A program made the translations under genes and the position numbers. Shown one piece after another: positions 20,205 to 23,351 of a stretch of 64,000 bases of DNA. The notes beneath the pieces were generated by a model. The model ran no database searches and was not told where the DNA came from. It saw only the letters and a program-made list of their open reading frames with translations. The DNA lies in assembly GCA_038897215.1 (NCBI GenBank), contig JAWAWX010000001.1, positions 896,001-960,000 of the forward strand, read 5' to 3'. Positions within the stretch are counted from its first letter, which is position 1. Each line of letters starts with the position of its first letter. Source of the DNA: Acidilobaceae archaeon. GTDB lineage: Archaea; Thermoproteota; Thermoprotei_A; Sulfolobales; Acidilobaceae.

Positions 20205-21999
20205 TTCTCCTCAGCTGCCTCCTGTACATCTCAACTATCTCATCCTCTGTGGTAGCGTCTTCTGGACTCTTATCGGGCCTCCATCTGATGAATCTAGGGA
20301 ATCTAATCGAGATCCCCACGTCAGCCTTCACTACATCCAAACCGCAGGTGTGCATTGGCGAGAGAGTCAGCTCTGCTCCAAGTATCTCCGCTACGAATCT
20401 AGGCTCAATCCAGACGTCTGGCTTCAGCTTGCTCACTACTCTAGCGTGCTTGTGGGGGATCACGTAGGGTTTCAGCATCTCGTTCATCTTATCTAGCTCC
20501 TCGTCTGTAAACCCTGTAGCTACCTTGCAGACAGTCTTGAAGACATCTGCTCTCGGGTCGTATGCAGCCATGAGGAGACTGCTGAGCTTCCCTCCGCGCT
20601 TCCCCTTACCATAGAATGCTCCGACAACAACCAGGTCTACGGTGTCTATCATCTCGCTCTTGTAGTCTCTCTTGAATTTAACCCAGAGCCATCCTCTGAC
20701 TCCAGCTGTGTAGACGCTGTTATCGTGTATAGCTTTAATCATCAGCCCCTCTGCTCCCTCGGATATCGCTTCGTAGAAGAAGCTCATTATGCTCGAGGCG
20801 CTATCTGTCACCACGTTTCTGGCTATAGCCCAGTTTTCATCCTCTACTATGATGCTCTCCAGGTACTGTCTCCTCTCTAGGAGAGGTTTGACTGTCAAGT
20901 CTACTCCGTCGACGTAGAGAGCGTCGAAGAGGAACACCTTGACTGGAACTTCTTTCATCACCTTGTCTATCTCGTGCTTCCTCTTCCTCTGCATGAGCTC
21001 CTGGAATGGCTTCAAGTCGCCTGTCTCGGGGTCGTACGCGACTATCTCTCCCTCTATTATGGCTTCTCTAGCTCTGATTCCTCTCCTAGCGTACTCCACG
21101 ACGTCGGGGAACATCCTGGTTATGTTCTCCAGCCTCCTCGAGAATATTCTCACCTCCTCCCCCATCTTGTGTATCTGAGCTCTCTCTCCGTCGTACTTGA
21201 ACTCTACGAGAGCTCTGCCGCCGACTTTCTCCATGACCTCCTCGATGTCTTTGCCTCGCTCTGCGAGCATGGGTCTTATGGGCACGCCAGGCTGGGGCGT
21301 GATGTGCTGAAGAGCACTTACTCCCTCTCGCGCCACGATTTTAGCTATTGCTCCCAAGTCTGCTCTCAGATTGTACGCTCTCTCCACGATAGGCCTGGCT
21401 GATGAGCCTCCACCGAATGCTACAGCTAGAGCGTCTAGTATCGTGGCGTCTCCAACCCCTAGCCTCAGCCTCCCCTCCACGAATCTGACTATGTACTTCG
21501 CCTCGAGAGGCTCGGCGTCAGCAAGAAGCCCGGCGAGCAAGCGGATCTTGACGTCCTTGCTCCCCTCACCCGTAGCCTCTGCTACCCTACGTAGAGTATC
21601 GAAGACTCTCGTCACAGTGAGTTTTCTCTGCTGCCCTCCGACGAAGAGCTCTAGCCCCGAGGGCTTCTGCCTAGACTGCCTAGAGAGCCTCTCAGCCAGG
21701 GACCCCATATCGCCCAGCGATTTGAAGAGCTTCTCTACAGTGTCGACAGACACTCTGTAAGCTTGAGCTAGAGAAGCTAGTAGCATCTTCTCTCCTACGC
21801 CGAGCTCAGGAATATCCATCCAATCGGGGCCCAGCTTGCCCTGGATTAGGTAGACGACCTTGTCTATCACCTCTGGAGGAGAAGCCTTGAAGAGCTTCAC
21901 TAGAATCAGCGCTAGCTGAGTCCTAGCGCTAACTCTCTCCAGACTCTGGAAAACCTCAGCGACCCTAGAGAACTCCATGTCTGCAACCGGCCCGCTCAC
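20167..21999 (-). CDS. lig: ATP-dependent DNA ligase
   Basis: PMLA, EFKYDGER, EGLMIK, RFPRF. Confidence 0.98.
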   Translation of the reverse strand: MSGPVADMEFSRVAEVFQSLERVSARTQLALILVKLFKASPPEVIDKVVYLIQGKLGPDWMDIPELGVGEKMLLASLAQAYRVSVDTVEKLFKSLGDMGSLAERLSRQSRQKPSGLELFVGGQQRKLTVTRVFDTLRRVAEATGEGSKDVKIRLLAGLLADAEPLEAKYIVRFVEGRLRLGVGDATILDALAVAFGGGSSARPIVERAYNLRADLGAIAKIVAREGVSALQHITPQPGVPIRPMLAERGKDIEEVMEKVGGRALVEFKYDGERAQIHKMGEEVRIFSRRLENITRMFPDVVEYARRGIRAREAIIEGEIVAYDPETGDLKPFQELMQRKRKHEIDKVMKEVPVKVFLFDALYVDGVDLTVKPLLERRQYLESIIVEDENWAIARNVVTDSASSIMSFFYEAISEGAEGLMIKAIHDNSVYTAGVRGWLWVKFKRDYKSEMIDTVDLVVVGAFYGKGKRGGKLSSLLMAAYDPRADVFKTVCKVATGFTDEELDKMNEMLKPYVIPHKHARVVSKLKPDVWIEPRFVAEILGAELTLSPMHTCGLDVVKADVGISIRFPRFIRWRPDKSPEDATTEDEIVEMYRRQLRRIEEAPLESQEAA

Positions 22000-22045
22000 A
22001 GAGCCCCCTCCTAGAGAAAATCTAGCACACCAAACCTAAAGGAGA

Positions 22046-22111
22046 GAGGAGCTCGGCGCTTGCACTCCTCGGTCACAGGGGTCCCAGCGCGCGGACTCCT
22101 CACAGCCCCCC
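22046..22111 (-). ncRNA. Possible box C/D sRNA just downstream of tRNA-Leu
   Basis: GGGGGGC/GCTCCTC terminal stem, C-like GTGAGGA, D-like CCGA; internal boxes degenerate. Confidence 0.35.
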
Positions 22112-22139
22112 AGTTACCCAGCCTGACCGCGCAATAGAG

Positions 22140-22227
22140 TGGTGCGGGGGGTGGGATTTGAACCCACGCAGGCCTACGCCATCGGGTCCTGAGCCCGACC
22201 CCTTTGACCAGGCTCGGGCACCCCCGC
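22140..22227 (-). tRNA. tRNA-Leu (anticodon CAG), intronless, CCA encoded
   Basis: GCGGGGG/CCCCCGC acceptor stem, TCGGG-CTCAGGA-CCCGA anticodon arm, long variable arm, GGTTCAAATCC T-loop, ACCA end. Confidence 0.97.
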
Positions 22228-22285
22228 ACTCTACCCTCTAGCTGGTGACCTCTGACTCAACCTTGTGTCTGATATCGAGCCCAAG

Positions 22286-22301
22286 AGCCTTATAAGCTTT
22301 C
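22286..22301 (-). promoter_or_regulatory. BRE-TATA, likely for tRNA-Leu
   Basis: Minus strand AAAAGCTTATAAGG about 60 nt upstream of the tRNA. Confidence 0.55.
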
Positions 22302-22538
22302 AAGCATTAGCAGACTAAACGAGAGCACGCTAAGCAGATGCTCGTTCTCAAGCCTAGATAGCATCCACTAAGAGAGTAGACCGTAACCACTAGCACGATA
22401 ACGCGAGCTCTCCGAAGATTCGAGCCTCCACTAACCCTCCGCAGCTCTAGCCCTATAGTCATCTAAAGCTCCTGAATAGCATCCACTCACAGCACTACGC
22501 TAGAACGTGCCCCTAAAGCAGAGAGAACACAGAAGAGT

Positions 22539-22863
22539 AGCGGAGGCGAGCACCCCCAAAGGTTCGAACAACCAGACCCCCCACCCCCGGGCCCGGTGGG
22601 CTTGGGGGTGTGTTAGAGAAGATAGCTAGAGGAAAGCCTCTATATAGCAGAAGGCCCCACAACCTGCAGGGCTCGGAGGTACTCGAGAACCCAAGGCTCC
22701 AGCATGAGCCGGAGCCCCGGATTCCCGGATACCTCCGGCCTCCTCACGGCTGTGGAGCCTTCTGCTATATAGAGGCTTTCCTCTAGCTATCTTCTCTAAC
22801 ACACCCCCAAGCCCGAGCGGGGGGTCGTGGTCCCCGCGGGCTTTGGGGGTGCTCGCCTCCGCT
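22539..22863. repeat. Large nested inverted-repeat (fold-back) element
   Basis: Perfect 58-bp IR 22598-22655/22757-22814; perfect 23-bp IR 22539-22561/22841-22863; imperfect pairing continues to a 4-nt loop at 22704-22707. Confidence 0.95.
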
Positions 22864-22949
22864 TCTTTTTTGCTTTCTGGGTTAAAGAGGGAATAGGCTG
22901 GTGTTACTGTTTGCTGGTATTTAGCGGCGCTAGTATATAGGGTTTTGTT

Positions 22950-23351
22950 TTAGTATACGTAAGCTATTAGGATGCCGCCTATTCTTCTAGCTATTGCTTC
23001 TTTGTGTGACATCACACCGCGGTCTGTGGAGAGTATGAGTATCCCTATGTCTCTGCTTGCTAGGTACTTCTTCAGGTGGTCTGGCATTCTGAGGAGCTCT
23101 CGGTAGGTCGCAGAGAATCTGGGCTTCACTACTCCGCAGTCGTTCACTCTGCCTAGGAGGTGGACTCTGAACTTGCCGAATCTACCGTCGTCTATGTACT
23201 CGAACTCGCCTATGTATCCTTCTCTCTGCATTACTCTAAGCACGTTGGCTATGAGCTTCGAGGCCGGCATTATTATTGCTTCTCTCTTTCCCCTCATCTC
23301 CGCGTTCTTTATCGTGGCCATCGCGTTAGCTAGAGTGTCTAGCATCACCAC
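22950..23351 (-). CDS. rps8: 30S ribosomal protein S8
   Basis: [33 protein letters not shown]. Confidence 0.97.

What the first reader, a model, noticed from the sequence alone, without database searches (positions are those of the whole stretch)
22539..22863. ~325-nt nested fold-back element with minus-strand G.U bias and switchable arms
Seen: perfect 58-bp and 23-bp inverted repeats share roughly one axis, and pairing continues to a 4-nt loop (22704-22707), giving a stem of roughly 150 bp. Most core mismatches are G.U on the minus strand (A.C on plus), e.g. CCACAGCC/GGTTGTGG, GGGAATCCGGGGCTCCGGC/GCTGGAGCCTTGGGTTCTC, GACCCCCCGCTC/GGGTGGGGGGTC. CACCCCCAA/TTGGGGGTG occurs four times, so each end can instead fold on itself. 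Each 58-bp arm carries a BRE/TATA-like GAAAGCCTCTATATAG pointing inward. No ORF, transposase or clear target-site duplication. Inference: a long hairpin RNA read from the rps8 side, a single-stranded-DNA/cruciform element (MITE-like or origin-like), or a convergent promoter pair. I recognise no RNA family for it.
Basis: partly seen in the sequence, partly recalled or inferred. Interest (0 to 1): 0.8.

Follow-up and report, generated by a model that had tools for sequence, protein, structure and literature searches.

The report
Conserved giant hairpin gene after rps8
A single-copy, roughly 320-base near-perfect hairpin sits right after the ribosomal protein S8 gene in two related genera of uncultured hot-spring archaea; it is most likely a gene for a previously undescribed rod-shaped RNA, and its DNA also behaves as a self-correcting palindrome.

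Summary
Window 22540-22862 is a 323-nt hairpin (perfect 58-bp and 23-bp inverted repeats, 4-nt loop, fold z-scores -22 and -27). Unitigs from two independent studies cover it without a difference.

It is not a MITE. It is single-copy, and it lies at the same place (just downstream of rps8) in all 10 species of two sister genera of Acidilobaceae. It was found in none of about 330 other genomes of the class.

- **Base:** helices P1 and P2 covary. They carry three unpaired motifs (X, Y, Z) that are each self-complementary and stay so by covariation.
- **Middle:** a 65-90-bp stem that is unrelated in sequence between species yet nearly perfectly paired.
- **Apex:** conserved within one genus.

Two features point to an RNA made in the rps8 direction (window minus strand). 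A TATA-like box sits about 28 nt before the first paired base in every lineage. Loop residues on that strand are 55% A and 8% U.

Family-wide it is 57:67, so arm identity is probably kept by DNA-level correction. A sharp strand-composition flip flanks the element in 6 of 9 genomes.

The function is unknown and no Rfam family matches. No RNA data could be obtained. This scan had already noted this same stretch in other readings.

The parts
22540..22862 (-). The whole element: a 323-nt hairpin, proposed RNA gene read on the minus strand (same direction as rps8).
   Evidence: Folds; bounds; homologues in 9 other species.
22879..22892 (-). TATA-like promoter box (CTTTAA on the minus strand at 22882-22887), about 20-25 nt upstream of the first paired base.
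   Evidence: A box at a fixed position in all 13 distinct sequences. Same geometry as the SRP RNA and tRNA promoters.
22841..22862 (-). P1, 5' strand of the basal helix. It pairs with 22540-22561.
   Evidence: Perfect 23-bp inverted repeat; covarying pairs in RNAalifold.
22540..22561 (-). P1, 3' strand of the basal helix.
22833..22840 (-). Motif X (CCCGCGGG), a self-complementary 8-mer on the 5' side of the internal loop. It is CCGCGCGG or CTGCGCAG in the sister genus.
   Evidence: The change C2-G7 to U2-A7 keeps self-complementarity.
22562..22569 (-). Motif Y (GTTCGAAC, core TTCGAA at 22563-22568), a self-complementary motif on the 3' side, opposite X.
   Evidence: Variants are TTCCGGAA, TTCATGAA, TTCTAGAA and TTCCAGGAA. 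Y tracks the length of X: six-base cores CCGCGG/TTCGAA in this genus, 8/8 in the other.
22570..22582 (-). P2, 3' strand. It pairs with 22819-22832.
   Evidence: The sequence differs in every lineage while pairing is kept.
22819..22832 (-). P2, 5' strand.
22587..22597 (-). Motif Z (ACCGGGCCCGG on the minus strand), an 11-nt bulge present only on the 3' side.
   Evidence: Invariant in 7 species and ACGGGGCCCCG in 3, a compensatory change that keeps the palindrome.
22598..22664 (-). P3 long stem, arm 1 (58 bp perfect, 67 nt at 97%). The sequence is hypervariable between species.
22748..22814 (-). P3 long stem, arm 2.
22665..22747 (-). Core and apex of the hairpin with a 4-nt loop (22704-22707). 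In this genome the mismatches here are mostly G.U on the minus strand.
21700..22539 (.). Flank that is A/C-rich on the plus strand. It covers the spacer, the tRNA-Leu gene and the start of the ligase gene.
22863..23200 (.). Flank that is G/T-rich on the plus strand. It covers the spacer and the 3' end of rps8.
22950..23351 (-). rps8, the only constant neighbour. It is the last gene of the truncated ribosomal-protein operon.
   Evidence: Pfam Ribosomal_S8; synteny.
22140..22227 (-). tRNA-Leu(CAG), 313 nt downstream on the same strand, with no TATA-like box of its own within 60 nt.

Best explanation
The element is a lineage-specific gene for a rod-shaped non-coding RNA of about 270-325 nt. It is transcribed from its own promoter in the rps8 direction (window minus strand), starting at the first base of the basal helix.

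The RNA has two sequence-constrained ends joined by a spacer:
- **Base module:** P1, an internal loop made of the self-complementary motifs X and Y, P2, and a one-sided bulge Z.
- **Apex module:** short helices separated by A-rich loops.
- **Spacer:** a long duplex whose sequence is free but whose pairing is kept.

Inferred, not shown:
- X, Y and Z are contact sites. Because each keeps its self-complementarity, they may serve pairing between two copies of the RNA, or binding by a symmetric protein.
- The near-perfect arm identity is maintained mainly at the DNA level. The palindrome folds or breaks and one arm is corrected against the other, rather than pairing being kept by RNA-level selection alone.
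- That DNA-level activity would also explain the flank composition flip, the rearrangements at its border and the contig breaks.

The cellular role of the RNA is unknown.
For: **Real and ancient.**
- There is one copy in each of the 10 species of genera g1 and g7, always just after rps8. There were 0 hits in 57 other family genomes. The only other hit in the order and class scans was a chance match in a coding region.
- g1 and g7 form a clade with 100/98 support.
- Eight more full copies and two truncated ones were found in metagenomes.

**Structure under constraint.**
- RNAalifold predicts 68 pairs, 47 of them with compensatory double changes.
- Between G045 and L139 there are 14 double changes, and all keep pairing.

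**Promoter.** A TATA-like box is centred about -28 from the first paired base in all g7 lineages and about 5 nt closer in g1, despite variable spacers. SRP RNA and tRNA genes of the same genomes have the same geometry.

**Strand.** On the rps8-sense strand, loops (excluding X/Y/Z and 1x1 mismatches) hold A 118, U 17, C 47, G 31. On the other strand they hold U 106 and A 39. The A excess is seen in both halves of the hairpin, so it is neither a palindrome effect nor the flank skew.

**Motifs.** X, Y and Z stay self-complementary through changes on both sides. X and Y change length together.

**Precedent in the same genome.** The other large palindromic structure is a true RNA gene, SRP RNA.
Against: - There are no expression data. 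Two metatranscriptome runs gave 0 reads on any part of the stretch, from only about 3% of each run, so this is no test.
- Unlike SRP RNA in the same nine genomes, the hairpin has no consistent better-folding strand. SRP sense always folds better, with G.U 108 against 54. The hairpin shows G.U 57 sense against 67 antisense.
- Uninterrupted Watson-Crick runs of 40-70 bp are far beyond the 7-11 bp seen in g7 SRP RNAs.
- X, Y and Z read the same on both strands, which would equally suit a DNA-level or two-strand function.
- There is no clear oligo-T terminator right after P1.
- No partner protein has been identified.
Confidence: 0.55

Rival explanations
1. A cis-acting DNA element that works in folded form (single-strand hairpin or cruciform). 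It could be a recombination, replication-priming, segregation or origin-like site. P1 and P2 would be protein-binding arms, X/Y an unpaired central region, and Z the extra-helical strand marker, as in integron attC sites or the folded CTX-phage attP.
For: - There is no strand bias among arm mismatches (57:67), and very long perfect arms.
- X, Y and Z are palindromes that read the same on both strands.
- The flank composition flips with the polarity expected for diverging forks or outward single-strand exposure, in 6 of 9 genomes. In this genome it is the 7th sharpest flip genome-wide; the second-sharpest and the sixth lie beside the two CRISPR leaders of this window.
- Rearrangement breakpoints lie on both sides: the operon is cut, and the CitMHS gene is inverted in two species.
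Against: - Loops are strongly A-rich on one strand only, and a promoter box is conserved on one side only. A symmetric DNA site does not predict either.
- The two orc1/cdc6 genes lie at 262 kb and 470 kb, not near 918 kb.
- There is no recombinase or initiator next to it in any genome.
- There is no cumulative-skew minimum at the element.
- The centre is GC-rich in several species.
- The spacing of the TTC/GAA half-sites varies from 0 to 3 nt, which is odd for a dimeric DNA binder.
Confidence: 0.2
2. A two-way transcriptional end-stop or insulator. The hairpin would form at the 3' end of the very highly expressed ribosomal-protein operon transcript and, in most g7 species, at the 3' end of the convergent CitMHS transporter mRNA. 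It would stabilise both and keep them apart. Both strands would then be transcribed, which would explain the symmetry.
For: - In six g7 species the convergent CitMHS gene ends 9-158 nt from the hairpin.
- The spacer between rps8 and the hairpin is A/C-rich with no T-tract. T-rich sequence begins only after the hairpin, in each exit direction.
- The mismatch spectrum is symmetric.
- G000, where everything is co-directional, is the one genome with a clear sense G.U bias.
Against: - Archaeal termination is known to depend on oligo-T tracts, not hairpins (established knowledge).
- A 300-nt hairpin with conserved loop motifs and an apex module is far more than a terminator needs.
- The conserved promoter box just upstream would be pointless.
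- In g1 and in G045/G072 there is no convergent gene.
- A-rich loops occur on one strand only.
Confidence: 0.12
3. An immobile relic of a fold-back or MITE-like insertion that caused the operon break. It would persist only because palindromes homogenise themselves, and would have no function.
For: - It sits exactly at the rps8 | rpl6 operon break.
- It has a palindromic architecture with a fast-evolving interior.
Against: - It is single-copy in every genome. There is no transposase, no target duplication and no second match of the variable stems.
- It is retained in 10 of 10 species across two genera whose neutral DNA is saturated.
- Motifs, helices and the upstream box are under clear purifying and compensatory selection.
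Confidence: 0.06

Closest known systems
Archaeal SRP (7S) RNA, Rfam RF01857
   Same: It is a rod-shaped RNA of about 300 nt whose 5' and 3' ends pair. Two functional ends are joined by a long helix, and it has its own TATA promoter. In this genome SRP RNA is the only other structure of comparable palindromic strength.
   Different: There is no Rfam match even at E 10. There is no helix 6/8 branch. The true SRP RNA lies elsewhere in every genome. SRP RNA shows a clear sense-strand fold advantage and short helices, and the hairpin does not.
Integron attC sites and the folded CTX-phage attP (recombination sites that act as single-strand DNA hairpins)
   Same: Structure is conserved while sequence is not. 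There are two helical boxes separated by an unpaired central spacer, an extra-helical element on one strand only, and a terminal stem of variable length and sequence.
   Different: Those sites are 57-141 nt, occur in arrays or on mobile DNA, and sit next to a tyrosine recombinase. Here there is one 270-325-nt copy at a fixed chromosomal locus with no recombinase nearby, a promoter box and strand-specific A-rich loops. This resemblance is recalled from knowledge and was not tested with a model.
Long chromosomal palindromes cleaved by SbcCD / Mre11-Rad50 and repaired by recombination (E. coli model), and GRINS skewed repeats (PMC8256042)
   Same: It is a long palindrome with a very short spacer. 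The arms are kept identical, there is an intense local nucleotide skew next to sequence that undergoes gene conversion, and rearrangements occur at its border.
   Different: Those are engineered or protein-coding repeats, not a conserved, promoter-equipped, single-copy element. Cleavage or conversion here is inferred, not shown.
Bacterial 6S RNA and eukaryotic hairpin-RNA / pri-miRNA loci
   Same: These are long, mostly double-stranded RNAs. Function depends on shape, and conserved junction or loop features flank a stem of free sequence.
   Different: No Argonaute, RNase III or reverse transcriptase is found in this single-contig (89.7% marker-complete) genome. The Rfam miRNA hits are far below threshold.

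Membership tests
Archaea_SRP RNA (RF01857) | Match to the covariance model, with a branched S domain (helices 6 and 8). | tested here: not met
   cmscan found no SRP hit on 22000-23100 at E up to 10. The real SRP RNA is at C1:51512-51834 with 162.9 bits.
MITE / fold-back transposable element | Multiple dispersed copies in a genome. | tested here: not met
   There is one copy in the own genome and one per genome in all 10 carriers. The variable stems have no second match.
MITE / fold-back transposable element | Target-site duplication and variable insertion sites. | tested here: not met
   The site is always directly downstream of rps8. No flanking direct repeat was found.
Archaeal replication origin (oriC with ORB elements) | An adjacent or nearby orc1/cdc6 (or whiP) initiator gene. 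| tested here: not met
   Cdc6_C hits lie only at 262.7 kb and 470.4 kb, while the element is at 918.7 kb. The neighbours are rps8, tRNA-Leu and DNA ligase.
Archaeal replication origin (oriC with ORB elements) | An A+T-rich unwinding region between inverted ORB repeats, and a chromosome-scale skew switch. | tested here: inconclusive
   The centre is AT-rich in some species and GC-rich in G000 and the G054 clade. The skew flip is local (about 0.3-0.5 kb) and there is no cumulative minimum at the site. The ORB consensus was not tested with a model.
Retron non-coding RNA (msr-msd) | An associated reverse transcriptase. | tested here: not met
   There is no RVT_1 match in the single-contig genome.
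Hairpin-RNA / small-RNA precursor (RNAi-like) | Argonaute/Piwi and an RNase III-type processing enzyme. | tested here: not met
   There is no Piwi and no Ribonucleas_3_3 match. The Rfam miRNA hits score 19-30 bits against cut-offs of 46-150.
Integron attC-like folded recombination site | A neighbouring integron integrase, cassette arrays, and a length of 57-141 nt. | tested here: not met
   It is a single element of 270-325 nt. No recombinase-like neighbour is present in g1 or g7.
Independent structured ncRNA gene (generic) | Its own promoter at the right distance, and covariation supporting the fold. | tested here: met
   The box is centred about -28 in all g7 lineages and about 5 nt closer in g1. 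47 of 68 pairs have compensatory changes.
Independent structured ncRNA gene (generic) | A discrete transcript detected. | not testable with these tools
   The only RNA runs offered gave 0 reads for the whole stretch from 3% samples, which is no test.

The most novel reading that the evidence does not exclude
A new class of archaeal rod-shaped RNA that self-associates through three covarying self-complementary loops (X, Y, Z). Its gene would be kept a near-perfect palindrome by hairpin-templated DNA correction, a process that also leaves strand-asymmetric mutational scars in the flanking genes, as seen beside CRISPR arrays in the same genome. That would link an RNA gene's structure to a so far undescribed local DNA repair or mutation process in hyperthermophiles.
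Probability: 0.2. Interest if true: 0.85.

Novelty: new variant of a known kind. Interest (0 to 1): 0.62.

Why it matters
If it is an RNA gene, it adds a large, clade-specific structured RNA to the short list of big archaeal non-coding RNAs. Its design is unusual: conserved ends, a free-sequence but perfectly paired spacer, and self-complementary loops. That design gives clear handles for experiments.

Independently of function, it is a natural long palindrome retained in every species sampled of two genera. It shows concerted evolution of its arms, flank composition scars, operon breakage and a neighbouring gene inversion. That makes it a good natural system for studying how hyperthermophilic archaea tolerate and process hairpin-forming DNA.

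It also breaks short-read assemblies at this locus, which matters for binning these lineages.

Tried and rejected
- **Rfam.** Scans at the gathering threshold and at E up to 10 gave only tRNA-Leu and sub-threshold miRNA or IRES noise.
- **SRP or RNase P identity.** Both RNAs are elsewhere in the genome.
- **MITE or REPIN.** It is single-copy.
- **Viral origin.** The 40 pattern hits in viral contigs are chance hits in GC-rich DNA with ordinary fold energies. An arm 30-mer gave none.
- **Targets of the variable stem.**
  - No significant second match in G007. In G045 the best second match is short and imperfect (29 nt, 86%, E 0.008).
  - One exact 19-nt match in a G000 coding region (E 0.008) is judged to be chance.
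- **CRISPR relation.** The repeat sequences are unrelated.
- **ORB-like repeats elsewhere.** The other CACCCCCAA copies lie in G/T-skewed DNA beside a degenerate array.
- **Global skew as an origin test.** The cumulative minima follow gene orientation and match neither the orc genes nor the element.
- **A second long palindrome at 1.038 Mb.** It is two facing tRNA genes.
- **The rpl6 upstream region.** It has an ordinary promoter and no related element.
- **Expression.** No RNA holder is listed. The two metatranscriptome runs laid gave 0 reads for the stretch, so this is no test.
- **NucS link.** NucS was found in 5 of 6 genomes with flank skew and in 0 of 3 without. This amounts to one or two evolutionary events, and G007 is an exception, so it is only suggestive.
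- **Literature.** Searches for long hairpins or palindromes in Crenarchaeota returned nothing relevant.
- **One tool failure.** The first try of the look-up of sequencing runs failed.

Full report
**1. What is in the window**

Positions 22540-22862 form one long hairpin. The perfect inverted repeats are 58 bp (22598-22655 / 22757-22814) and 23 bp (22539-22561 / 22841-22863). With a few mismatches the arms extend to 67 nt at 97% and 38 nt at 87%.

Folded as RNA, the plus strand gives -272.6 kcal/mol (z -22.4) and the minus strand -303.9 kcal/mol (z -26.8). No shuffle comes close.

All neighbouring genes are on the minus strand: S4e, L5, S14 and S8 (22950-23351), then the hairpin, then tRNA-Leu(CAG) (22140-22227), DNA ligase, Rpr2 and S19e. 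The usual continuation rpl6... is missing. In this genome rpl6 lies 46 kb away with its own promoter.

Rfam finds nothing but the tRNA. SRP RNA and RNase P RNA are elsewhere.

The genome is a single 1.16-Mb contig of an uncultured member of the Acidilobaceae, named from the record titles of relatives.

The element is the strongest palindrome in that genome; the runner-up is SRP RNA. Unitigs from two independent hot-spring studies cover it with no difference, including a 161-nt unitig that spans arm, core and arm. It is therefore not an assembly artefact.

**2. It is a conserved, single-copy, syntenic element**

It occurs once in the own genome.

In the sister species the same locus holds a homologous hairpin split over two contig ends. 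Among 30 family genomes, a long hairpin directly after rps8 is present only in genera g1 and g7. Elsewhere rpl6 follows at once.

I scanned with a pattern taken from two conserved motifs (ACSGGGCCCSG, 17-20 nt, TTC, 0-3 nt, GAA):
- It hits exactly once in 2 of 2 g1 genomes and 8 of 8 g7 genomes.
- It hits 0 of 57 other family genomes.
- In 258 further genomes of the order it hits once, by chance, in a coding region.
- In 18 further genomes of the class it hits nowhere.

Among 160 more rps8 loci from genomes and metagenomes, every locus with a long hairpin also carries the motif. This added eight full copies and two copies truncated at contig ends.

In an S8+L5 tree g1 and g7 are sisters with 100/98 support. 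The element therefore arose once, together with the operon break, and has been kept in every descendant sampled.

**3. Anatomy, read on the rps8-sense (window minus) strand**

- **P1:** a basal helix of about 20 bp.
- **Internal loop:** motif X lies on the 5' side and motif Y on the 3' side.
- **P2:** 13-19 bp.
- **Z:** an 11-nt bulge on the 3' side only.
- **P3:** a 65-90-bp stem.
- **Apex:** in g7 this is a conserved series of 4-8-bp helices separated by small loops.

P1 and P2 differ in sequence between lineages but stay paired. RNAalifold on 13 sequences gives 68 pairs, 47 of them with compensatory double changes.

P3 cannot be aligned between genera or between most species, yet it is nearly perfectly paired in each. 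Between G045 and L139 there are 14 double changes, and all preserve pairing.

X, Y and Z are each self-complementary and remain so when they change:
- X is CCGCGCGG, CTGCGCAG or CCCGCGGG.
- Y is TTCGAA, TTCCGGAA, TTCATGAA, TTCTAGAA or TTCCAGGAA.
- Z is CCGGGCCCGG or CGGGGCCCCG.

X and Y also change length together: six-base cores (CCGCGG and TTCGAA) in g1 and 8/8 in g7. X does not covary with Y. So the self-complementarity of each motif, not pairing between them, is what is conserved.

**4. Evidence for an RNA made from the minus strand**

*Promoter.* A TATA-like box is centred about 28 nt upstream of the first paired base in every g7 lineage, although the spacer sequence varies. It reads TAACCCCTTATAAAC or TTAAAA in g7. 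In g1 the box reads CTCTTTAAC and sits about 5 nt closer. SRP RNA and tRNA genes of the same genomes have boxes of the same kind at the same distance. No box is conserved on the other side.

*Loop composition.* In the sense fold, unpaired residues outside X/Y/Z and outside 1x1 mismatches are A 118, U 17, C 47 and G 31. In the antisense fold they are U 106 and A 39. The A excess is present in both halves of the hairpin. It is therefore neither a by-product of palindromy nor of the flank skew. A-rich loops are typical of structured RNAs (established knowledge).

**5. Evidence that the DNA itself is also active**

*Arm mismatches.* Over nine complete elements there are 1004 Watson-Crick positions, 57 G.U on the sense strand, 67 G.U on the antisense strand and 93 other positions (mostly X/Y). 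G020 shows 5:16 the other way, and the better-folding strand differs between species.

*SRP RNA control.* In the same nine genomes SRP RNA always folds better on its sense strand (G.U 108 against 54). In g7 its longest uninterrupted helices are only 7-11 bp.

*Inference.* The hairpin's 40-70-bp perfect runs and strand-neutral mismatch spectrum are better explained by correction of one arm against the other at the DNA level than by RNA-level selection alone. This step is inferred.

*Flank composition.* G+T minus A+C flips from about -0.4 just upstream to about +0.3 just downstream and decays over 300-500 nt. It reaches into the rps8 3' end and the ligase 5' end. The flip is present in 6 of 9 genomes and absent in the G054/G071/G073 clade, whose arms carry more mismatches than those of most carriers. 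In this genome it is the 7th sharpest flip genome-wide; the second-sharpest and the sixth lie beside the two CRISPR leaders of this window. That agrees with earlier notes of this scan.

*NucS.* It was found in 5 of the 6 genomes with skew and in none of the 3 without. This is only one or two independent events.

*Rearrangements and assembly breaks.* The distal border is a rearrangement point. It carries tRNA-Leu and ligase in g1 and a CitMHS transporter in g7. That transporter is co-directional in G045 and G072 and convergent in the other six. Three assemblies break inside the element.

**6. What it is not**

- It is not a MITE: it is single-copy and syntenic, with no target duplication.
- It is not SRP RNA.
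- It is not a retron, nor an RNAi-type precursor. There is no reverse transcriptase, Piwi or RNase III in the single-contig genome.
- It is not viral.
- It is not related to the CRISPR repeats.
- It is not next to an initiator gene.
- The inward TATA boxes in the arms of this genome lie in the hypervariable stem and are not conserved.
- On 'switchable arms': the 5' part can fold locally in all members (-17 to -37 kcal/mol), but the extended base is 40-58 kcal/mol better. At most this is a co-transcriptional intermediate.

**7. Verdict**

The best reading (about 0.55) is a new, clade-restricted gene for a rod-shaped RNA read from the rps8 side. It has functional modules at base and apex and a free-sequence duplex spacer, and its palindromic gene is homogenised at the DNA level.

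The rivals are:
- a DNA element acting in folded form (0.2);
- a two-way transcript end-stop between the ribosomal operon and the downstream gene (0.12);
- a functionless fold-back relic (0.06).

Function is unknown, and no transcript data could be obtained. The decisive experiment is deep, stranded mapping of transcripts and their ends at this locus.

Noticed in passing
L007:1501-1823 (G000 C1:51512-51834, outside the window): The SRP RNA of this genome has a 40-bp uninterrupted Watson-Crick helix 5. The eight g7 SRP RNAs have at most 7-11 bp. This suggests that hairpin-forming genes in this genome are being 'perfected'.
   Followed up: partly
window 22140-22290: tRNA-Leu(CAG), 313 nt downstream of the hairpin on the same strand, has no TATA-like box within 60 nt, unlike most other tRNA genes of the genome. 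It may depend on read-through from the hairpin promoter, or its promoter may have been eroded by the flank skew.
   Followed up: partly
L039:1621-2988 and L042:1057-2424 against L040, L043, L044, L045, L046: The CitMHS transporter gene next to the hairpin is co-directional in G045 and G072 but convergent in six other g7 species. An inversion breakpoint therefore lies at the hairpin border.
   Followed up: partly
L003 and L005 (G001 contig ends); L130; L133: Short-read assemblies of three relatives end inside the hairpin. The element is an assembly breakpoint and may be missed in fragmented MAGs.
   Followed up: yes
G000 C1: 949420, 959970, 28810, 12770, 441990, 148210 (the first two are window 53420 and 63970): These are other very sharp local flips of G+T against A+C. 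The two inside the window lie beside CRISPR leaders or arrays, and two others lie beside arrays at 10.4-12.8 kb and 23.9-28.7 kb. The sites at 441990 and 148210 were not examined.
   Followed up: partly
L006:1501-1519 (G000 C1:330509-330527): There is an exact 19-nt match to the hairpin arm (CTCTAGCTATCTTCTCTAA) inside a coding region, with E about 0.008. It is judged to be chance, because the relatives' stems have no convincing counterpart (best 29 nt at 86% in G045).
   Followed up: partly
G000 C1:1037719-1038134 (outside the window): Two facing tRNA genes (Ile and Gln) create a 320-nt pseudo-palindrome through their complementary T-arms.
   Followed up: yes
window 22610-22802: There are mirror-image 58-codon ORFs on both strands inside the arms. 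They are a by-product of the palindrome and the sequence is not conserved in relatives.
   Followed up: partly
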